Shown: one piece after another, positions 1-62,104 of the stretch
How the letters are laid out: each line of letters begins with the position of its first letter
Position numbering within the stretch: the stretch's first letter is position 1
Assembly (NCBI RefSeq): GCF_965233695.1
Contig: NZ_OZ247497.1
Coordinates: 2,495,277-2,559,276, forward strand
DNA from: Parasphingorhabdus sp.
GTDB lineage: Bacteria > Pseudomonadota > Alphaproteobacteria > Sphingomonadales > Sphingomonadaceae
Direction: 5' to 3'
DNA length: 64,000 bases
Notes under the pieces: model-generated
What the model was told of the DNA's origin: nothing
Database searches by the model: none
What the model saw: the letters and a program-made list of their open reading frames with translations, nothing else
Made by a program: the position numbers and the translations under genes

Positions 1-1051
<1,051 letters not shown>

Positions 1052-18949: not shown

Positions 18950-19154
18950 AAATTTCCCCGATGTGGTGACGTGTCAGGGGAGGATGGCATAACAACATAT
19001 GATTGCGCAACAATATTACCGGCGACGGAGAATTGCCACAAACGCAAGTCAATTGCAAAAATGCAACTCGCAGGTGCAGCATTTCACATTGCAACTTACT
19101 TTTATGTAAGCATACTGATCCCGCAACCTCCCCACACCTGAATGGAGACTTATC

Positions 19155-19421
19155 ATGAACAAATTTGCTTCGATTATCCTCGCCGCAACAGCTCTATCCC
19201 TGACGACCCCCTCTGCTTTCGCGGCAGACGTACAGCGCAATGATCGCCTGTACGATGCTAACGGCTCCAGTGTCGCCAAAATCAGCCGCGTTGCTGAAGA
19301 CGGTGACGTACTGGTGATCTATAAGGGTAAGGTTCGCCGCATTCAGGCTGAAACCCTGTCCAACACCGATGGCAAGTTGATGACGACACTGACCAAAAAG
19401 GAATTGCGCCGTTTGAAGTAA
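19155..19421 (+). CDS. Small exported protein of unknown function
   Basis: RBS GGAGA; signal peptide ending SAFA; followed by an intrinsic terminator. Confidence 0.8.
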   Translation: MNKFASIILAATALSLTTPSAFAADVQRNDRLYDANGSSVAKISRVAEDGDVLVIYKGKVRRIQAETLSNTDGKLMTTLTKKELRRLK

Positions 19422-20439: not shown

Positions 20440-21513
20440 TTAACGCTTTCTAACGGTTCCATTAGCGACGCAGAAATGGAGCGCGTCATCCGGTATATCG
20501 ACGAACAGGGCCGCTTCCGTTCCGGTCAACCAGACCTGACCACCTTTACTCGACAGCTTTTCGAACAGCGCGGCCCTTCGGACGGGATCGAGATGGGCAG
20601 CGACCTCATCGAGCAAGAGAATCGGGCGATTTCCCCGCTGTTCAGCGATAAGATCGGCATGTGCCAATATGATCGAAAATAGCAGCGCTTTCTGTTCACC
20701 GGTGGAGCATTTTTCTGCCGGTTGTTTCTTGCCTGCATGAACCACGCTAAGGTCGGCACGGTGCGGTCCCGTCAACGTCCGGCCAGCGCGGCGGTCCGCC
20801 TGGCGACCTTTTGCAAGTGCTTGATGCAATGCTGATTCGCTGCGGAGATCCTTGTCATCCAGATATAGTTTTGCCGCCGCGAACAAACCGTCGTCGGTCA
20901 TCGCCAGAGCGCTATTCAATCCCTCGGTAATGCGAAAGCGCGCTTCGGCAACGGCGCTGCCAAATCCGGCCAGCTGCCCGTCAAGCGCGTCCAGCCATTC
21001 GCTGTCCGGCATATATTCATCCGCCAATAGCCGGTTCCGCTCCCGCCGTGCGGCATCATAACGGGCGCAGTTTCTGGCATGTTCCGGCTCCAGCGCCGTG
21101 ACGAGGCGATCCAGAAAATTACGCCGTCCCGATGCGCCTTCCATGAATAACCGGTCCATCGCTGGCGTGAGCCATAATATCGAAAGCCATTGGGCCAGGT
21201 CATTTGTCGGTACCGCCGCGCCATTTATCCGTGTTTTGCGGCGTTCGGGATGTTCCGGGCTTGTCCCGGTCCCAAGTTGGATATCGTCCAGCTGCGCAGC
21301 AACAGCGAAATCACCGATGCTGTCTTCATGGGCCATGTCTTTCAGGGCTGCCCGCCTTAGCCCGCGCCCCGGAGATAAAAGCGATACCGCCTCCAGGATG
21401 TTGGTCTTCCCAGCACCATTATCGCCGCTCAGCACGACAAACCCTGGCGCGGCCTCCAGCCGCAGCTGCCGATAGTTCCGGAAATTTTGCAGGGTGAGCT
21501 GAGAGATCGTCAT
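20440..21513 (-). CDS. recF: DNA replication/repair protein RecF
   Basis: FRNY, Walker [41 protein letters not shown]. Confidence 0.96.
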
Positions 21514-21610
21514 AACAGGCTTTAAACTCTAGCCTTCCCCCAGAGGGATGAGAAGAAAATTCGCCGCGCTTGCCAATGTTGTTCATCTATCATTCATTAA
21601 ATGCTAAAAG

Positions 21611-21629
21611 TTAGTGAAAAGCGCTAACT
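21611..21629 (+). promoter_or_regulatory. Putative PspF-type upstream activator sequence
   Basis: TTAGTGAAAAGCGCTAACT matches 16/19 to the E. coli pspA UAS as I recall it (TTAGTGTAATTCGCTAACT). It lies about 75-90 bp upstream of a -24/-12 promoter that precedes pspC. Confidence 0.6.
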
Positions 21630-21701
21630 ATCAGTTTTACGCAATTTGACAATTGGCCAAAAAATTGACTAAATATCTGAATAATAACAATAATCAAAAA
21701 C

Positions 21702-21717
21702 TGGCACGGCCTGTGCA
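21702..21717 (+). promoter_or_regulatory. Sigma54 (RpoN) -24/-12 promoter
   Basis: TGGCACGGCCTGTGCA: GG (21703-21704) and GC (21715-21716) are separated by exactly 10 nt; TGGCACG half-site is consensus; AT-rich stretch upstream. Confidence 0.75.
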
Positions 21718-21780
21718 ATGTATGAGACATCTTCGGAAACACAACAACGAAGCCCAGTTTTAAAAGAAAAGGAAATCAAA

Positions 21781-21900
21781 ATGTTCACGAATGTCTCAAA
21801 CAATATCGCCGCCGCTTTCGCCGCTCTTGTCTCTGCCGCCGTATTTGTCGGTGCCAGCGTTGGACCAGCGATCAACAATGCCGGTTCTCTTGTAATCTAA
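21781..21900 (+). CDS. 39-aa hydrophobic microprotein, copy 1
   Basis: RBS AAGGAAAT; MFTNVSNNIAAAFAALVSAAVFVGASVGPAINNAGSLVI; paralog directly downstream. Confidence 0.8.
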   Translation: MFTNVSNNIAAAFAALVSAAVFVGASVGPAINNAGSLVI

Positions 21901-21930
21901 TCCCAACCCAATCCCCTGAAAGGAAATATC

Positions 21931-22050
21931 ATGACCTACGAACTTAAAAACAAATTTCTCGCTTCTTTCGCCGCTCTGTTCTCCGCCGCAATTTTTGTCA
22001 GCGCAAGCGTTGCTCCTGCAATGAACGCTGCTGGTTCGATGGTGATCTGA
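21931..22050 (+). CDS. 39-aa hydrophobic microprotein, copy 2 (not in ORF track)
   Basis: RBS AAGGAAAT; MTYELKNKFLASFAALFSAAIFVSASVAPAMNAAGSMVI; 23/39 identical to copy 1 without gaps. Confidence 0.8.
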   Translation: MTYELKNKFLASFAALFSAAIFVSASVAPAMNAAGSMVI

Positions 22051-22133
22051 TGGCAAACGAGAAAAAGACCACCCGTTCTACGCCAACCAGCTGGCCGGAA
22101 CCGATTTCATCTAACAAAAGGAAAAACAGCCCA

Positions 22134-22313
22134 GTGAAAAACAAACTGAAACTCGACAAAGCCAATGGCAAGCTGATGGGCGTATGTTCCGGCCTTGCAA
22201 ATTGGAGCGGCATGGACGCTAATTTGCTGCGGATAATCTTCGTACTTGCGACAATTTTCGGCTTTGGTTCTGCCATCATCATCTATCTTGCGATCGGCCT
22301 GATTGTTGACTGA
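22134..22313 (+). CDS. pspC: PspC-domain membrane protein
   Basis: RBS AAGGAA before GTG 22134; KLKLDKANGKLMGVCSGLA...LLRIIFV...IIYLAIGLIV is the PspC signature. Confidence 0.85.
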   Translation: MKNKLKLDKANGKLMGVCSGLANWSGMDANLLRIIFVLATIFGFGSAIIIYLAIGLIVD

Positions 22314-22437
22314 TTAAAGATCCAGTGTCGCATGAATGATATAACATACAGAAAACATTGAATAATAATCATAGACCGCTCTGATAAATCCGTGTATTTA
22401 GTGACAACTAGTCATTGAGTAATTTATCGGAGCGCAG

Positions 22438-23418
22438 ATGTCCGACGGGTCCAATCATAGTCACGATCACCACGGACATCATGGCCATCACGGTCATCTC
22501 TTTCACAGTCATCACGATCGCCATGGCCCGCACGGCCATATGCCGACTAATTTCAGTCGTGCCTTCGCCTTCGGTATCACGCTCAATATCATCTACATCA
22601 TCGTCGAAGTTACCTTTGGCCTGCTATCCGGCTCGATGGCGCTGCTCGCCGATGCCGGACATAATTTGTCAGACGTTCTCGGGCTGGCCGTTGCATGGGC
22701 AGGGGCCGAGCTTTCAAAACGGCCGCCCAGCAAACAGTTCACTTATGGCCTGGGCGGATCTTCCATTTTGGCAGCGCTGTTAAATGGACTCTTTCTGCTG
22801 GTGGCTTGCGGTGCCATTGCCTGGGAGGCGATCGAGCGATTTAGTGCGCCGAGCGAGGTGGCATCGACAACAATCATCATTGTGGCATCGGTCGGTATCG
22901 TGATTAACTTCGGCACCGCCATGCTGTTCCTGCGCGGTCAGAAAGAAGATATAAATATTCGCGGCGCCTTTTTGCACATGATGGCCGATGCCGCGGTCTC
23001 CGCCGGAGTGGTTCTGGGCGGCATACTGATTTTCTATACCGGCAAGAACTGGATCGACCCGCTCATCAGCCTGTTCATCGTTGCGCTCATTTTCTGGAGC
23101 ACCTGGGGCTTGCTGACCGAAGCCATCCGGATGTCGCTGGCCGGCGTACCGCGCAATATTGACGTCGAGGAAGTCTTTGAAGCGCTGTCCGGACTGCCGG
23201 GGGTTGAGACGGTTCATGATCTGCATGTCTGGCCAATGAGCACCAGCGAAACCGCAATGACGGCTCATCTTGTCATTCCCGGCGGCCATCCCGGCAAGGG
23301 ATTTCTCGCGGATGTTCAGGCGGATATGAAGAAGCGCTTTTCCATTCATCACATCACTATCCAGATTGAGCTGGAGGATGAAGAGGCCGAGCTTTGTCAG
23401 ACGGATTGTGGCTCATAA
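22438..23418 (+). CDS. Cation diffusion facilitator (CzcD/ZitB-like Zn/Co/Cd exporter)
   Basis: His-rich N-terminus; ALLADAGHNLSD, AFLHMMAD and VHDLHVW motifs. Confidence 0.93.
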   Translation: MSDGSNHSHDHHGHHGHHGHLFHSHHDRHGPHGHMPTNFSRAFAFGITLNIIYIIVEVTFGLLSGSMALLADAGHNLSDVLGLAVAWAGAELSKRPPSKQFTYGLGGSSILAALLNGLFLLVACGAIAWEAIERFSAPSEVASTTIIIVASVGIVINFGTAMLFLRGQKEDINIRGAFLHMMADAAVSAGVVLGGILIFYTGKNWIDPLISLFIVALIFWSTWGLLTEAIRMSLAGVPRNIDVEEVFEALSGLPGVETVHDLHVWPMSTSETAMTAHLVIPGGHPGKGFLADVQADMKKRFSIHHITIQIELEDEEAELCQTDCGS

Positions 23419-23468: not shown

Positions 23469-23532
23469 GATAGCTACGAAGTTGACAAAGTGGACATAGT
23501 CCTTTGCATCGTTTCATTCTTGTATTCCGGGC

Positions 23533-23678
23533 CAAAGTTCACACAAATCACACAGGGTATCGATCTGGTGAATTCACGATGTGTGGGTGCAAAGTTCACA
23601 CAAATCACACCCCATTGGTCATATGGCATTGTTCCATCGGCATCGGAGGCCCCGATGCAAAGTTCACACAAGTCACAC
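23533..23678. repeat. Three 21-bp direct repeats CAAAGTTCACACAA(A/G)TCACAC
   Basis: Copies at 23533-23553, 23590-23610 and 23658-23678; spacers of 36 and 47 bp. Confidence 0.9.
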
Positions 23679-23919: not shown

Positions 23920-24216
23920 ATGCGACTATTTGCAAAGAAACTATCAATCCTTTCTGTCACCGCAGTCTCGGCATTATCCCTCTCGGCCTGCGCGGGAAAC
24001 TATGCTGGTGAAGGCGCGGCTGCCGGAGCGGCGACCGGCGCGATTATCGGTGCGGTAACCGGCGATACAGGTGATGCCTTAAAGGGCGCGGCCATTGGCG
24101 CTGCTGCTGGTGCAGCGGCAGGTTATTTCATCGACAAAGATGACGATTGTGACGGCTATAATGATGATGGCGAGCTTGACGATGATTGTCGCGGGGAACC
24201 CGGTTATCCGGATTAA
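23920..24216 (+). CDS. Glycine-zipper (YMGG-like) lipoprotein
   Basis: RBS AGGAG before ATG 23920; lipobox LSAC; GAAAGAATGAIIG...GAAIGAAAGAAAG; acidic tail with two Cys. Confidence 0.85.
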   Translation: MRLFAKKLSILSVTAVSALSLSACAGNYAGEGAAAGAATGAIIGAVTGDTGDALKGAAIGAAAGAAAGYFIDKDDDCDGYNDDGELDDDCRGEPGYPD

Positions 24217-60523: not shown

Positions 60524-62104
60524 ATGGATGCCGACATAGCAAAAGGACAAGAAAGGCAAGGCTACAATGGCCTGGCTGCCATTTGTGGTACGGATGCGGT
60601 GACTACCGATGAAGCCCGCCTGCGCTACTTTTCGCAGGACCTGTTTTTTGAAGGTATCCTGCCGCTTGCAATTGTGAGTCCGGCAACCACCGATATGGTT
60701 GTCAGGATAGTTCAGTTCTGCCGAGCACAGGGTTGTGCAATTTTTCTGCGCGGTGGAGGCATGTCTTACACAAAGGCTTTCCAGCCTACATCTGCAAACG
60801 CCATCATGCTTGATTTTTCCAGGCTATCAGCCATTCGTGAGATATCGGTTGAGGATGGCCACGTCACGGTGGAAGCGGGCTGCACATGGGCTGCACTGGA
60901 TGAAGCACTTGCCAAGCATGACAGGCGCGCACGGTTTTGGGGACCCATGTCGGGGCGATCGGCAACAATTGGTGGCTCCATGAGTCAAGGGACTGTGACT
61001 TTTGGCTCTGGCACCAATGGTGCTTCGGCGAATGCCGTCAAAAGCTTCGAGGTGGTGACCGGTGCCGGTGAGCTGTTACACAGCGGCTCCGATGGTACGA
61101 CAGGAACACGGCCATTTAACCGCAATTTCGGGCCGGATTTGACGGGTATATTCGCCAATGATGCCGGGGCGCTGGGAATCAAGACAGCGGTGACCCTCGA
61201 AATTGAACCACGCCCGGCGCAGGTTAGCGGTCTGTCCTTTGCCTATGATGATTTCGATGCCATGGCGCAGCTGTTTTCCGATCTGTCCATGCGCCGTCTG
61301 TCATCGGAGATGATTGCAATGGATGGCGACGTCGCGCGACAAAATTCGGGCGCGCCTGATCTCTTGGAAGACGCAAAAGCGATGTGGCGTATTGGCAAGG
61401 CGGCCGGAAATCCATTGTCAGCCGTCGGCCGAATGTTTCGCATTGCAATGAGTGGGCGGCGATTTCTGGACAAGGCAAAATATACTGCGCATTTTGTGGT
61501 GGAAGGCCGGGACAAAGCAGAGCTTGAAAGCCGGATAAATGCCATTCGCGGATTTGCCAAATCAGGGGAGGAGATCGTCAATACCGTGCCGTTGATGACG
61601 CGCGCCGATCCGTTTCCGGTTCTGCCAGTGACGCATCCTGACGGCCGCCGGATGTTGCCGATCCATGGGGTGTTTCCTCAATCAGCATTGCAAGGTTTTC
61701 ATCAGGATTACCTATCCCTCAAGGCCAGTTTTGCCGAACGGATGACAGAGACGAACGTCACTATTGCGGAATTTTTTGCCGGTGTGGCGGGCATTGGATT
61801 GCTTTACGAACCCGTATTCTACTGGCCCGACAGCCTGTACGAATATCATAACCGCCTTACGCCTGATTATCTTGAAGGAAAAATGCCGGAGTTTCCGGAA
61901 AACCTGACGGCGCGGGAATTGGTCGGGGAGTTCGTGTCGGCTTTCAATGCGTTGGTGCATCAGCACGGCGGAACCCATTTTCAGATCGGGCGGCTCTACC
62001 CCTATACGGAAAATCGCGAAAGCGGTGCAGCCATGTTGCTTCGCGATCTCAAAACGTCACTGGATCCGGATAACATTATCAATCCGGGAGCGTTGGGCTT
62101 GTGA
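60524..62104 (+). CDS. FAD-binding oxidoreductase (PCMH/VAO-type, GlcD-like)
   Basis: RBS AAGGGA; RGGGMSY, ATIGG, VVTGAG, PDLTG, C-terminal LDPDNIINPG. Confidence 0.87.
   Translation: MDADIAKGQERQGYNGLAAICGTDAVTTDEARLRYFSQDLFFEGILPLAIVSPATTDMVVRIVQFCRAQGCAIFLRGGGMSYTKAFQPTSANAIMLDFSRLSAIREISVEDGHVTVEAGCTWAALDEALAKHDRRARFWGPMSGRSATIGGSMSQGTVTFGSGTNGASANAVKSFEVVTGAGELLHSGSDGTTGTRPFNRNFGPDLTGIFANDAGALGIKTAVTLEIEPRPAQVSGLSFAYDDFDAMAQLFSDLSMRRLSSEMIAMDGDVARQNSGAPDLLEDAKAMWRIGKAAGNPLSAVGRMFRIAMSGRRFLDKAKYTAHFVVEGRDKAELESRINAIRGFAKSGEEIVNTVPLMTRADPFPVLPVTHPDGRRMLPIHGVFPQSALQGFHQDYLSLKASFAERMTETNVTIAEFFAGVAGIGLLYEPVFYWPDSLYEYHNRLTPDYLEGKMPEFPENLTARELVGEFVSAFNALVHQHGGTHFQIGRLYPYTENRESGAAMLLRDLKTSLDPDNIINPGALGL

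What the first reader, a model, noticed from the sequence alone, without database searches (positions are those of the whole stretch)
21781..22050. Twin 39-aa paralogous hydrophobic microproteins
Seen: two ORFs of exactly 120 nt, each behind AAGGAAAT, 23/39 identical with no gaps. Conservation is concentrated in FAALxSAAxFVxASVxPAxNxAGSxVI while the N-termini diverge, which points to protein-level selection. The second is missed by the ORF track. Inference: single-pass, small-residue-rich membrane peptides that may oligomerise or partner PspC; a signal-peptide-like or processed-peptide role is also possible.
Basis: partly seen in the sequence, partly recalled or inferred. Interest (0 to 1): 0.72.

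Follow-up and report, generated by a model that had tools for sequence, protein, structure and literature searches.

The report
Stress-promoter-driven twin membrane microproteins beside PspC
Two real, conserved 39-residue membrane-helix genes sit in front of a small PspC-domain gene behind a sigma-54 promoter whose enhancer resembles that of the E. coli phage-shock operon, so they look like unannotated small components of an envelope-stress system in marine sphingomonads.

Summary
Gene A (21781-21900) and gene B (21931-22050) each encode 39 aa and are 23/39 identical without gaps. Both sit behind AAGGAAAT.

They are real genes. Every one of about 30 related loci in Sphingorhabdus/Parasphingorhabdus and allies carries 2-3 tandem copies of 38-40 codons. 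A-type and B-type copies form separate orthologue clades. pN/pS is about 0.25, and variation falls mainly on third codon positions.

All loci share the same fixed-spacing layout:
- a dyad enhancer (window GTTAG-N9-CTAAC, 17/20 identical to the E. coli pspA site);
- an IHF-like site;
- a near-consensus sigma-54 promoter (TGGCACGGCCTGTGCA, 21702-21717);
- a 5'-terminal mRNA hairpin.

Gene B's stop overlaps the pspC start (TGATG), as pspB/pspC do in E. coli. Contigs from four biofilm RNA-seq runs cover A-B-pspC but hardly touch recF.

Best reading: these are sigma-54-dependent, probably PspF-type, stress-induced single-pass microproteins that work with the minimal PspC protein. The family also occurs as stand-alone operons without pspC. 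No Pfam, NCBIfam, PDB or named homologue exists. Neither the activator gene nor translation was shown.

The parts
21610..21628 (.). Dyad-symmetric upstream activator site (enhancer), GTTAGTGAAAAGCGCTAAC, i.e. GTTAG-N9-CTAAC
   Evidence: It lies at a fixed, gap-free distance (about 84 nt from dyad centre to the -24 GG) in 23 loci from both genomic contexts. With its 3' flanking T (21610-21629) it is 17/20 identical to the E. coli pspA enhancer GTTAGTGTAATTCGCTAACT. A PWM built without the window ranks the E. coli pspA site first in 7 kb.
21670..21682 (-). IHF-like site at the conserved position (promoter start -32); 2 mismatches to WATCAANNNNTTR in the window
   Evidence: The same position carries 0-1 mismatches in most related loci, e.g. 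TATCAATAACTTA in L003, L005 and L011. The E. coli pspA promoter has AATCAGATCTTTA at -33.
21702..21717 (+). Sigma-54 (-24/-12) promoter TGGCACGGCCTGTGCA
   Evidence: It is the only match in the 64 kb window; 0.03 are expected by chance. An equivalent element is found at the same distance from gene A in 17 of 18 genome loci by the strict pattern and in L017 by a relaxed one. It is also present in L024-L030.
21731..21752 (+). 5'-terminal mRNA stem-loop (CTTCG...CGAAG), starting about 4 nt after the predicted +1 (about 21728)
   Evidence: A hairpin is predicted at the same offset in all 20 loci folded. Distant lineages have different stems: CAGGC/GCCUG in L027, UCCGG/CCGGA in L028, GGAGCGG/CCGCCC in L029. 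RNA-seq contigs in 3 of 4 runs begin at 21742, inside its loop.
21781..21900 (+). Microprotein gene A (39 aa, uncharged), with SD-like AAGGAAAT at 21769-21776
   Evidence: It has an A-type orthologue clade.
21931..22050 (+). Microprotein gene B (39 aa, basic N-terminus), with SD-like AAGGAAAT at 21920-21927; its stop overlaps the pspC start
22050..22313 (+). Minimal PspC-domain protein (87 aa), translationally coupled to B (TGATG)
   Evidence: Pfam PF04024, E = 2.4e-15. It scores below the TIGR02978 equivalog cut-off, 52.7 against 104. The junction is shown.

Best explanation
A and B are genuine paralogous genes. Each encodes a single-pass, small-residue-rich membrane helix.

They are the first two genes of an operon, A-B-pspC, transcribed from a sigma-54 promoter. 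That promoter needs an enhancer-binding activator bound to a dyad site about 108 nt upstream of the predicted start, with IHF-assisted looping. The enhancer, the IHF position and the promoter match the E. coli pspA promoter. The activator is therefore most likely a PspF-type protein, and the operon is most likely switched on by inner-membrane or proton-motive-force stress.

A hairpin at the mRNA 5' end probably stabilises the transcript. B is translationally coupled to the minimal PspC-domain protein, at the position pspB holds relative to pspC in E. coli. The proposed mechanism is that A and B pack through their Ala/Ser/Gly faces with each other and with the PspC transmembrane helix. The resulting small membrane complex would stabilise or tune PspC, or itself act on the stressed membrane.

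Shown here: the coding status, purifying selection, the conserved promoter architecture, transcript coverage and the gene coupling. Inferred: the identity of the activator, the inducing signal, membrane insertion, oligomerisation and contact with PspC.
For: Coding:
- 38-40-codon ORFs with an SD-like AAGGAA occur in all loci.
- pN/pS is about 0.25, with variation mainly on third codon positions.
- A and B form separate orthologue clades.
- 34 and 31 small homologues turned up in two database-wide searches.

Promoter:
- The sigma-54 element is unique in the window and conserved.
- The enhancer and the IHF-like site keep a fixed spacing.
- The window enhancer is 17/20 identical to the E. coli pspA site.
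- A PWM built without the window picks the E. coli pspA enhancer as the top hit in 7 kb. It also picks a site upstream of pspG as the top hit in 6 kb. Background for such scores is 10-68 per Mb.

Transcription: contigs from four biofilm RNA-seq runs cover 21742 to about 22500. recF and most neighbouring genes are not covered.

Coupling: the TGATG overlap is conserved, and E. coli pspB/pspC overlap as TAATG. In Erythrobacteraceae a single 43-aa hydrophobic ORF overlaps pspC behind the same promoter type.

Helix: AF2 and hydropathy both indicate one helix.

Background: a psp cluster exists in Zymomonas, a member of the Sphingomonadales (PMC3495753), and PspFABC occurs in some Alphaproteobacteria (PMC11237479).
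Against: - No pspF, pspA or rpoN gene was located. None lies in the window or in any fetched flank, and whole genomes could not be searched.
- The enhancer half-sites vary among species (TTAG/TTGG/ATGG). The close match of this particular window to E. coli is therefore partly luck.
- The family also occurs without any adjacent pspC.
- The RNA 5' boundary (21742) lies 13-15 nt downstream of the predicted +1.
- The RNA runs are stored as contigs, are unstranded, come from 95-99% identical relatives, and may contain DNA.
- There is no evidence of translation.
Confidence: 0.55

Rival explanations
1. The microproteins are real and sigma-54-dependent, but a different enhancer-binding protein with another signal controls them. 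They act on their own as general membrane-modulating proteolipids, and the link to PspC is secondary.
For: Stand-alone twin or triplet operons with the same promoter lie between unrelated genes: MAPEG-like and phosphomannomutase genes in L015, SNase in L024. The window's own organism carries a second, unlinked triplet locus. The activator gene was not found.
Against: The enhancer matches the PspF sites of E. coli better than anything else in 13 kb of E. coli DNA. The IHF position is the same as in the pspA promoter. Coupling to pspC recurs in at least four divergent lineages.
Confidence: 0.25
2. A and B are self-toxic, membrane-depolarising peptides of the type I toxin or holin kind. PspC or the Psp response buffers their effect.
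For: They are very short, very hydrophobic peptides produced in tandem under a stress-type promoter.
Against: No antisense RNA or Rfam element was found. No conserved antisense promoter or terminator was found. The genes are fixed in the core genome next to recF across genera and are under purifying selection. The transcript is readily detected in environmental RNA.
Confidence: 0.08
3. The ORFs encode exported precursors. The hydrophobic stretch is a signal peptide cut near ASV|GPA, releasing a peptide of 10-13 residues.
For: Small residues sit at A25 and S26 before the invariant P29, and the C-terminal tail is conserved.
Against: Gene A has no basic n-region and no charged residue at all. The hydrophobic core is 19-20 residues, which is transmembrane length. 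The helix region is at least as conserved as the tail. No processing or export genes lie nearby.
Confidence: 0.07
4. The ORFs are not translated, and the conservation reflects an RNA or DNA element.
For: No direct evidence of translation is available.
Against: Substitutions follow codon positions with pN/pS about 0.25. ORF length and the SD are conserved over about 30 loci despite synonymous divergence up to 0.7. There is no Rfam match.
Confidence: 0.03

Closest known systems
E. coli PspF regulon promoters (pspABCDE and pspG)
   Same: The order is the same: dyad enhancer, IHF site about 32-33 nt upstream of the -24 element, then a sigma-54 promoter. The enhancer sequence is 17/20 identical. 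A pspC-domain gene lies in the operon. The small upstream gene overlaps pspC by one base.
   Different: There is no pspA and no divergent pspF at the locus; recF is the divergent neighbour. Only one enhancer dyad was recognised, against two at pspA. The PspC here is a minimal 87-aa domain-only protein that scores below the PspC equivalog cut-off.
PspB (74-aa single-pass partner of PspC)
   Same: It is a small single-pass membrane protein encoded immediately upstream of pspC and overlapping it, under the same promoter.
   Different: There is no sequence similarity; the Pfam scan returned nothing at E <= 1. A and B are half the length, lack PspB's cytoplasmic helical domain, and are duplicated.
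PspG / PspD (small membrane effectors of the PspF regulon)
   Same: They are small hydrophobic proteins under PspF/sigma-54 control. pspG is a stand-alone operon with one enhancer (PMC3709507), like the stand-alone twin loci.
   Different: There is no similarity to the Pfam PspG or PspD models. A and B are 39 aa against 73-80 aa.
Small regulatory membrane proteins of enterobacteria (AcrZ, KdpF, MgtS, YohP)
   Same: They are stress-induced single-helix proteins under 50 aa that act by binding larger membrane proteins or the bilayer (YohP: PMC12719787, PMC12542507; the others from general knowledge).
   Different: They are unrelated in sequence. None is known as a conserved paralogous pair behind a sigma-54 promoter.

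Membership tests
PspF/sigma-54 (phage-shock) regulon | -24/-12 sigma-54 promoter | tested here: met
   TGGCACGGCCTGTGCA at 21702-21717 is unique in the window, with 0.03 expected by chance. It is conserved in related loci.
PspF/sigma-54 (phage-shock) regulon | Enhancer resembling known PspF binding sites | tested here: met
   The window site is 17/20 identical to the E. coli pspA site. An independent PWM ranks the pspA site first in 7 kb, and a site upstream of pspG first in 6 kb. This is similarity of motif only; binding was not shown.
PspF/sigma-54 (phage-shock) regulon | IHF site between enhancer and promoter | tested here: inconclusive
   Matches to the consensus with 0-1 mismatch lie at a fixed position in most loci. 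The window has 2 mismatches there.
PspF/sigma-54 (phage-shock) regulon | pspF (and pspA) present in the genome | not testable with these tools
   No GAFTGA-type activator lies in the window or in any flank. Whole genomes were not searchable. The literature places psp clusters in Zymomonas (PMC3495753) and in some Alphaproteobacteria (PMC11237479).
PspF/sigma-54 (phage-shock) regulon | Induction by inner-membrane stress | not testable with these tools
   The only expression data are biofilm metatranscriptome contigs.
PspB / PspD / PspG protein families | Match to the Pfam family model | tested here: not met
   The Pfam scan of A and B at E <= 1 returned no family. NCBIfam gave only noise.
PspC (neighbouring gene 22050-22313) | PspC domain; equivalog score | tested here: met
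   PF04024, E = 2.4e-15, is met. The TIGR02978 equivalog cut-off is not reached (52.7 against 104). It is therefore a PspC-domain protein and not a canonical PspC.
Sec signal peptide / exported precursor | Basic n-region, 7-15-residue h-region, AXA cleavage site | tested here: not met
   Gene A has 0 charged residues. The h-region is 19-20 residues. Only a weak A-S-V motif is present. No predictor was run.
Type I toxin-antitoxin | Overlapping or adjacent antisense RNA | tested here: not met
   There is no Rfam hit and no antisense promoter or terminator. The RNA contigs are unstranded, so this test is weak.
Two-peptide (class IIb) or leaderless bacteriocins | Double-glycine leader or cationic peptides; transporter and immunity genes | tested here: not met
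   There is no GG leader, and the peptides are neutral or carry +1. The neighbours are recF, pspC and czcD, or unrelated housekeeping genes.

The most novel reading that the evidence does not exclude
The microproteins and the 87-aa PspC-domain protein form a minimal, PspA-independent phage-shock-like module. In it, hetero-oligomers of Ala/Ser-zipper helices are both the sensor and the membrane-sealing effector. They stand in for PspA and PspB and are amplified by gene duplication; the window's organism has five paralogues in two sigma-54 operons. This would be a new class of sigma-54-controlled stress proteolipids.
Probability: 0.25. Interest if true: 0.78.

Novelty: new variant of a known kind. 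Interest (0 to 1): 0.62.

Why it matters
Psp envelope-stress systems are well understood only in enterobacteria. Outside them, the role of stand-alone PspC-domain proteins is an open question (PMC11237479, PMC9239133).

This locus offers a clean, conserved and testable case. It is a PspF-like sigma-54 promoter driving a minimal PspC together with one to three previously unrecognised microproteins. Those microproteins occupy the place of PspA and PspB.

The locus also adds a well-supported family to the poorly charted set of bacterial proteins under 50 aa. Genome annotation mostly misses them: zero of three copies are called in the complete P. halotolerans genome. Finally, it suggests that the PspF recognition motif is conserved between Gamma- and Alphaproteobacteria.

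Tried and rejected
- Rfam scan of 21400-22500 at E <= 1: nothing.
- Pfam, NCBIfam, PADLOC and PHROGs scans and a PDB profile search of A and B: nothing meaningful. The best was a PHROG of unknown function at E = 0.028.
It was solved with an alignment query.
- Search for an enhancer-binding protein (GAFTGA / ESELFGH signatures) in the window and in all flanks: none.
- tblastn of E. coli PspA against plasmids, hoping for a sphingomonad psp locus: only enterobacterial hits were useful.
- Homologue search with the 43-aa Erythrobacteraceae ORF: one close hit only. Its profile-profile comparison with the family was not significant, at probability 3%. Its homology to A and B therefore remains positional only.
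- MAFFT plus RNAalifold on the 5'UTR gave no counted compensatory pairs because L027 was misaligned. Per-sequence folding showed the hairpin instead.
- A sigma-70-like promoter at 21665-21694 was rejected as the main promoter. It is not conserved, and RNA coverage starts only at 21742.
- NorR-type (GT-N7-AC) and NtrC-type enhancers were considered from memory and rejected. The conserved bases are the outer TTRG/CYAA, not the inner GT/AC.
- A PWM hit at window 477 (13.2 bits) lies inside a coding region with no sigma-54 promoter nearby, and was treated as chance.

Full report
**1. The observation**

The window holds two ORFs of 120 nt (39 codons plus a stop) at 21781-21900 (A) and 21931-22050 (B). 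Each starts 5-6 nt after an AAGGAAAT. The products are 23/39 identical without gaps (E = 5e-8). Identity is concentrated in residues 11-39.

The longer 60-aa reading of A, from an ATG at 21718, is an artefact. That ATG lies inside the promoter, upstream of the RNA boundary. The extension is closed by stop codons in related loci.

The neighbours are recF (20440-21513, minus strand), an 87-aa PspC-domain gene (22050-22313) and a CDF-type cation efflux gene (22438-23418).

**2. They are genes**

A profile search of 5.8 billion proteins found 34 relatives. An exhaustive HMM search of 1.84 billion cluster representatives found 31. All are essentially 32-41 aa; the longer ones are miscalled starts. 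None carries a name or a Pfam domain.

A scan of one genome per species returned 18 loci. All come from Sphingorhabdus, Parasphingorhabdus, or MAGs labelled Sphingomonadaceae, Sphingomonadales or only Pseudomonadota. Every locus has at least two tandem copies, and some have three. All copies are 38-40 codons long and carry an SD-like AAGGAA.

Among nine syntenic orthologues, summed pN/pS is 0.26 for A and 0.25 for B. Synonymous divergence reaches 0.7. Variable sites by codon position are 20/2/27 for A and 19/8/31 for B.

A neighbour-joining tree separates A-type from B-type copies across the recF-linked Sphingorhabdus loci. The duplication is therefore older than those species.

The invariant or near-invariant residues are N7, A11, A12, F13, A14, A15, S18, A19, A25, S26, V27, P29 and A30. 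Their spacing would place many of the small residues along one side of a helix.

**3. Genomic contexts**

Two contexts exist.
- **recF-linked.** L001-L009, L011 and L018 share recF | A | B | pspC | czcD with the window. So do L026 (the complete P. halotolerans genome, three copies, none annotated) and L030.
- **Stand-alone.** L010 and L012-L017 have no recF or pspC by tblastn. In L015 the pair lies between a MAPEG-like gene and a phosphomannomutase gene. L024 is followed by an SNase gene.

L010 is a second locus in the same genome as L005. The window's own organism (runs X1 and X2, which hold the window at 100%) has an L010-like triplet on another 49.7-kb contig at about 89% identity. That organism therefore carries five paralogues.

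More distant cases:
- L025 has a twin followed by a PspC-like gene that appears truncated or frameshifted, and then a cytochrome P460 gene.
- L028 has a divergent twin followed by a 58-aa PspC beside recF.
- In two Erythrobacteraceae genomes (A. xixiisoli L027, P. namhicola L029) the recF-pspC interval holds a single 43-aa hydrophobic ORF whose stop overlaps pspC as ATGA. Its sequence relationship to the family is not demonstrable (hhalign probability 3%). I treat it as a positional counterpart.

**4.

The 280 nt upstream of gene A were aligned across all loci and both contexts. Four elements appear at fixed spacing.

*(a) A dyad enhancer.* The consensus is (A/T)T(G/A)G-N9-C(C/T)A(A/T). In the window it is GTTAGTGAAAAGCGCTAAC at 21610-21628.

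*(b) An IHF-like site.* It lies 32 nt upstream of the promoter start. Most loci match WATCAANNNNTTR there with 0-1 mismatch; the window has 2.

*(c) A near-consensus sigma-54 promoter.* In the window it is TGGCACGGCCTGTGCA at 21702-21717. This is the only such match in 64 kb, with 0.03 expected by chance.

*(d) A stem-loop.* It starts about 4 nt after the predicted +1 (about 21728). It is predicted in all 20 loci folded, and three distant lineages use different stem sequences. A hairpin this close to the 5' end is the classic arrangement of an mRNA stabiliser (general knowledge), but that role is inferred here.

**5. Which activator?**

The E. coli pspF-pspA intergenic region was read from MG1655. 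It has the same order of elements. The enhancer is GTTAGTGTAATTCGCTAACT. An IHF-like site (AATCAGATCTTTA) lies 33 nt upstream of TTGGCACGCAAATTGTAT. The window's enhancer is 17/20 identical to it, with the same GTTAG-N9-CTAAC dyad.

To avoid circularity I built a PWM from 19 sphingomonad sites, leaving out the window and its three closest relatives.
- In 7 kb around the E. coli psp operon its top hit is that pspA enhancer, at 12.9 bits. The next unrelated hit scores 6.4.
- In 6 kb around pspG its top hit (13.8 bits) lies about 165 nt upstream of the pspG sigma-54 promoter. A second hit, ranked fourth, lies about 62 nt upstream.
- Scores of at least 12.9 occur 10 times per Mb in an E. coli-like background and 68 times per Mb in an intergenic-composition background. 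That gives roughly 0.002-0.01 expected in the 166-bp pspF-pspA spacer.

PspF-dependent promoters with IHF-assisted looping and one or two enhancers are documented (PMC3709507). A psp gene cluster is reported in Zymomonas, a member of the Sphingomonadales (PMC3495753). PspFABC occurs in some Alphaproteobacteria (PMC11237479).

No activator gene lies in the window or in any flank, and I could not search whole genomes. 'PspF-type activator' therefore remains an inference from the motif. I give it about 0.6.

**6. Transcription**

Four plastic-biofilm runs labelled RNA-Seq are held as assembled contigs from strains 95-99% identical to the window. All four have contigs covering A, B and pspC and running on to about 22500-22620. 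In the surrounding 19 kb, recF is touched once and most genes are not covered.

In three of the four runs the contig begins at exactly 21742. That is 13-15 nt downstream of the predicted +1 and inside the hairpin loop. Two explanations fit: loss of the extreme 5' end during library preparation, or processing in the loop. I cannot tell which.

These data show presence and an upstream boundary. They do not show strand, induction or translation.

**7. The proteins**

A has no charged residue. B has E4, K6 and K8. In each pair the second copy tends to carry one or two basic residues at the N-terminus, which suggests an N-in orientation for B.

The best 19-residue hydrophobic window is residues 9-27 in both proteins, and 16-17 of 39 residues are Ala, Gly or Ser. 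AlphaFold2, run with the family alignment, predicts one helix over residues 3-36 (mean pLDDT 76).

B's stop overlaps the pspC start by one base (TGATG) in every recF-linked Sphingorhabdus-type locus checked. E. coli pspB/pspC overlap in the same way as TAATG. Such overlaps usually indicate translational coupling and matched production of partners (general knowledge).

**8. Interpretation**

The best-supported model has three parts.
- An envelope-stress operon of the phage-shock type is driven by sigma-54 and a PspF-like activator.
- Its products are one to three tiny single-pass helices and a minimal PspC-domain protein.
- The microproteins sit where pspA and pspB sit in E. coli, and B is coupled to PspC as PspB is.

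I propose that they pack with each other and with the PspC transmembrane helix through their small-residue face. The complex would stabilise or tune PspC, or act directly on the stressed bilayer. The stand-alone operons would be additional regulon members, analogous to pspG.

The rivals, scored in their own section, are: a different activator with PspC-independent function; self-toxic peptides; exported precursors; and non-coding conservation.

**9. Comparison and novelty**

The regulatory logic is that of the known PspF regulon. The proteins belong to no described family: Pfam, NCBIfam, PADLOC, PHROGs and PDB searches were all negative. They fail the PspB, PspD and PspG membership test.

I therefore rate this as a new variant of a known kind of system, containing a new microprotein family restricted to a subclade of the Sphingomonadales.

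Noticed in passing
window 21742: Contigs from three of four independent RNA-seq runs begin at exactly this base. It lies in the loop of the 5'UTR hairpin, 13-15 nt downstream of the predicted sigma-54 start. It could be a processing site or a library-preparation effect.
   Followed up: partly
window 21665-21694: A sigma-70-like promoter (TTGACT-18-AATAAT, 10/12) overlaps the IHF-like region. It is not conserved in related loci.
   Followed up: partly
window 475-501: The sequence AAATTGGTTTTTTTCACCAGAAAAG scores 13.2 bits with the enhancer PWM, almost as high as the real site. It lies inside a coding region and has no sigma-54 promoter nearby, so it is probably chance.
   Followed up: partly
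window 61009-61024: A second, weaker sigma-54-like motif (TGGCACCAATGGTGCT) has no family-type enhancer 94 nt upstream.
   Followed up: no
window 23473-23640: The intergenic stretch after czcD contains a short repeated element. The 35-nt segment 23473-23507 matches several other contigs of the same genome at raised depth, and the six-frame translations repeat. It looks like a dispersed REP-like repeat.
   Followed up: no
window 23920-24216 (about 98 aa; also L019 11989-12285 and L024 11795-12172): A glycine-zipper (YMGG / Rick_17kDa) small protein gene lies a few genes from the microprotein locus in two different genomic contexts. Another small-residue membrane protein recurring nearby may be coincidence.
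   Followed up: no
window 19155-19421: An 88-aa ORF with a signal-peptide-like N-terminus and no Pfam hit is covered by RNA contigs in two of the biofilm runs (19138-19379). It appears to be an expressed, unannotated small secreted protein.
   Followed up: no
window 22314-22620: RNA contigs run from pspC across the 124-nt spacer into the start of czcD, and no terminator was detected. There may be read-through, or czcD may have its own promoter (a sigma-70-like site lies at 22341-22369).
   Followed up: no
L026 7542-8485, L028 7396-8321, L030 4514-5453, L024 10229-10699: A PilZ-domain gene followed by an SNase gene, or the SNase gene alone, recurs just downstream of the microprotein/pspC module in several genomes.
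   Followed up: no
L025 1786-2073: The PspC-like gene after the twin loses PspC similarity after about 35 residues. It is likely a frameshift, a pseudogene or an assembly error in this MAG.
   Followed up: no
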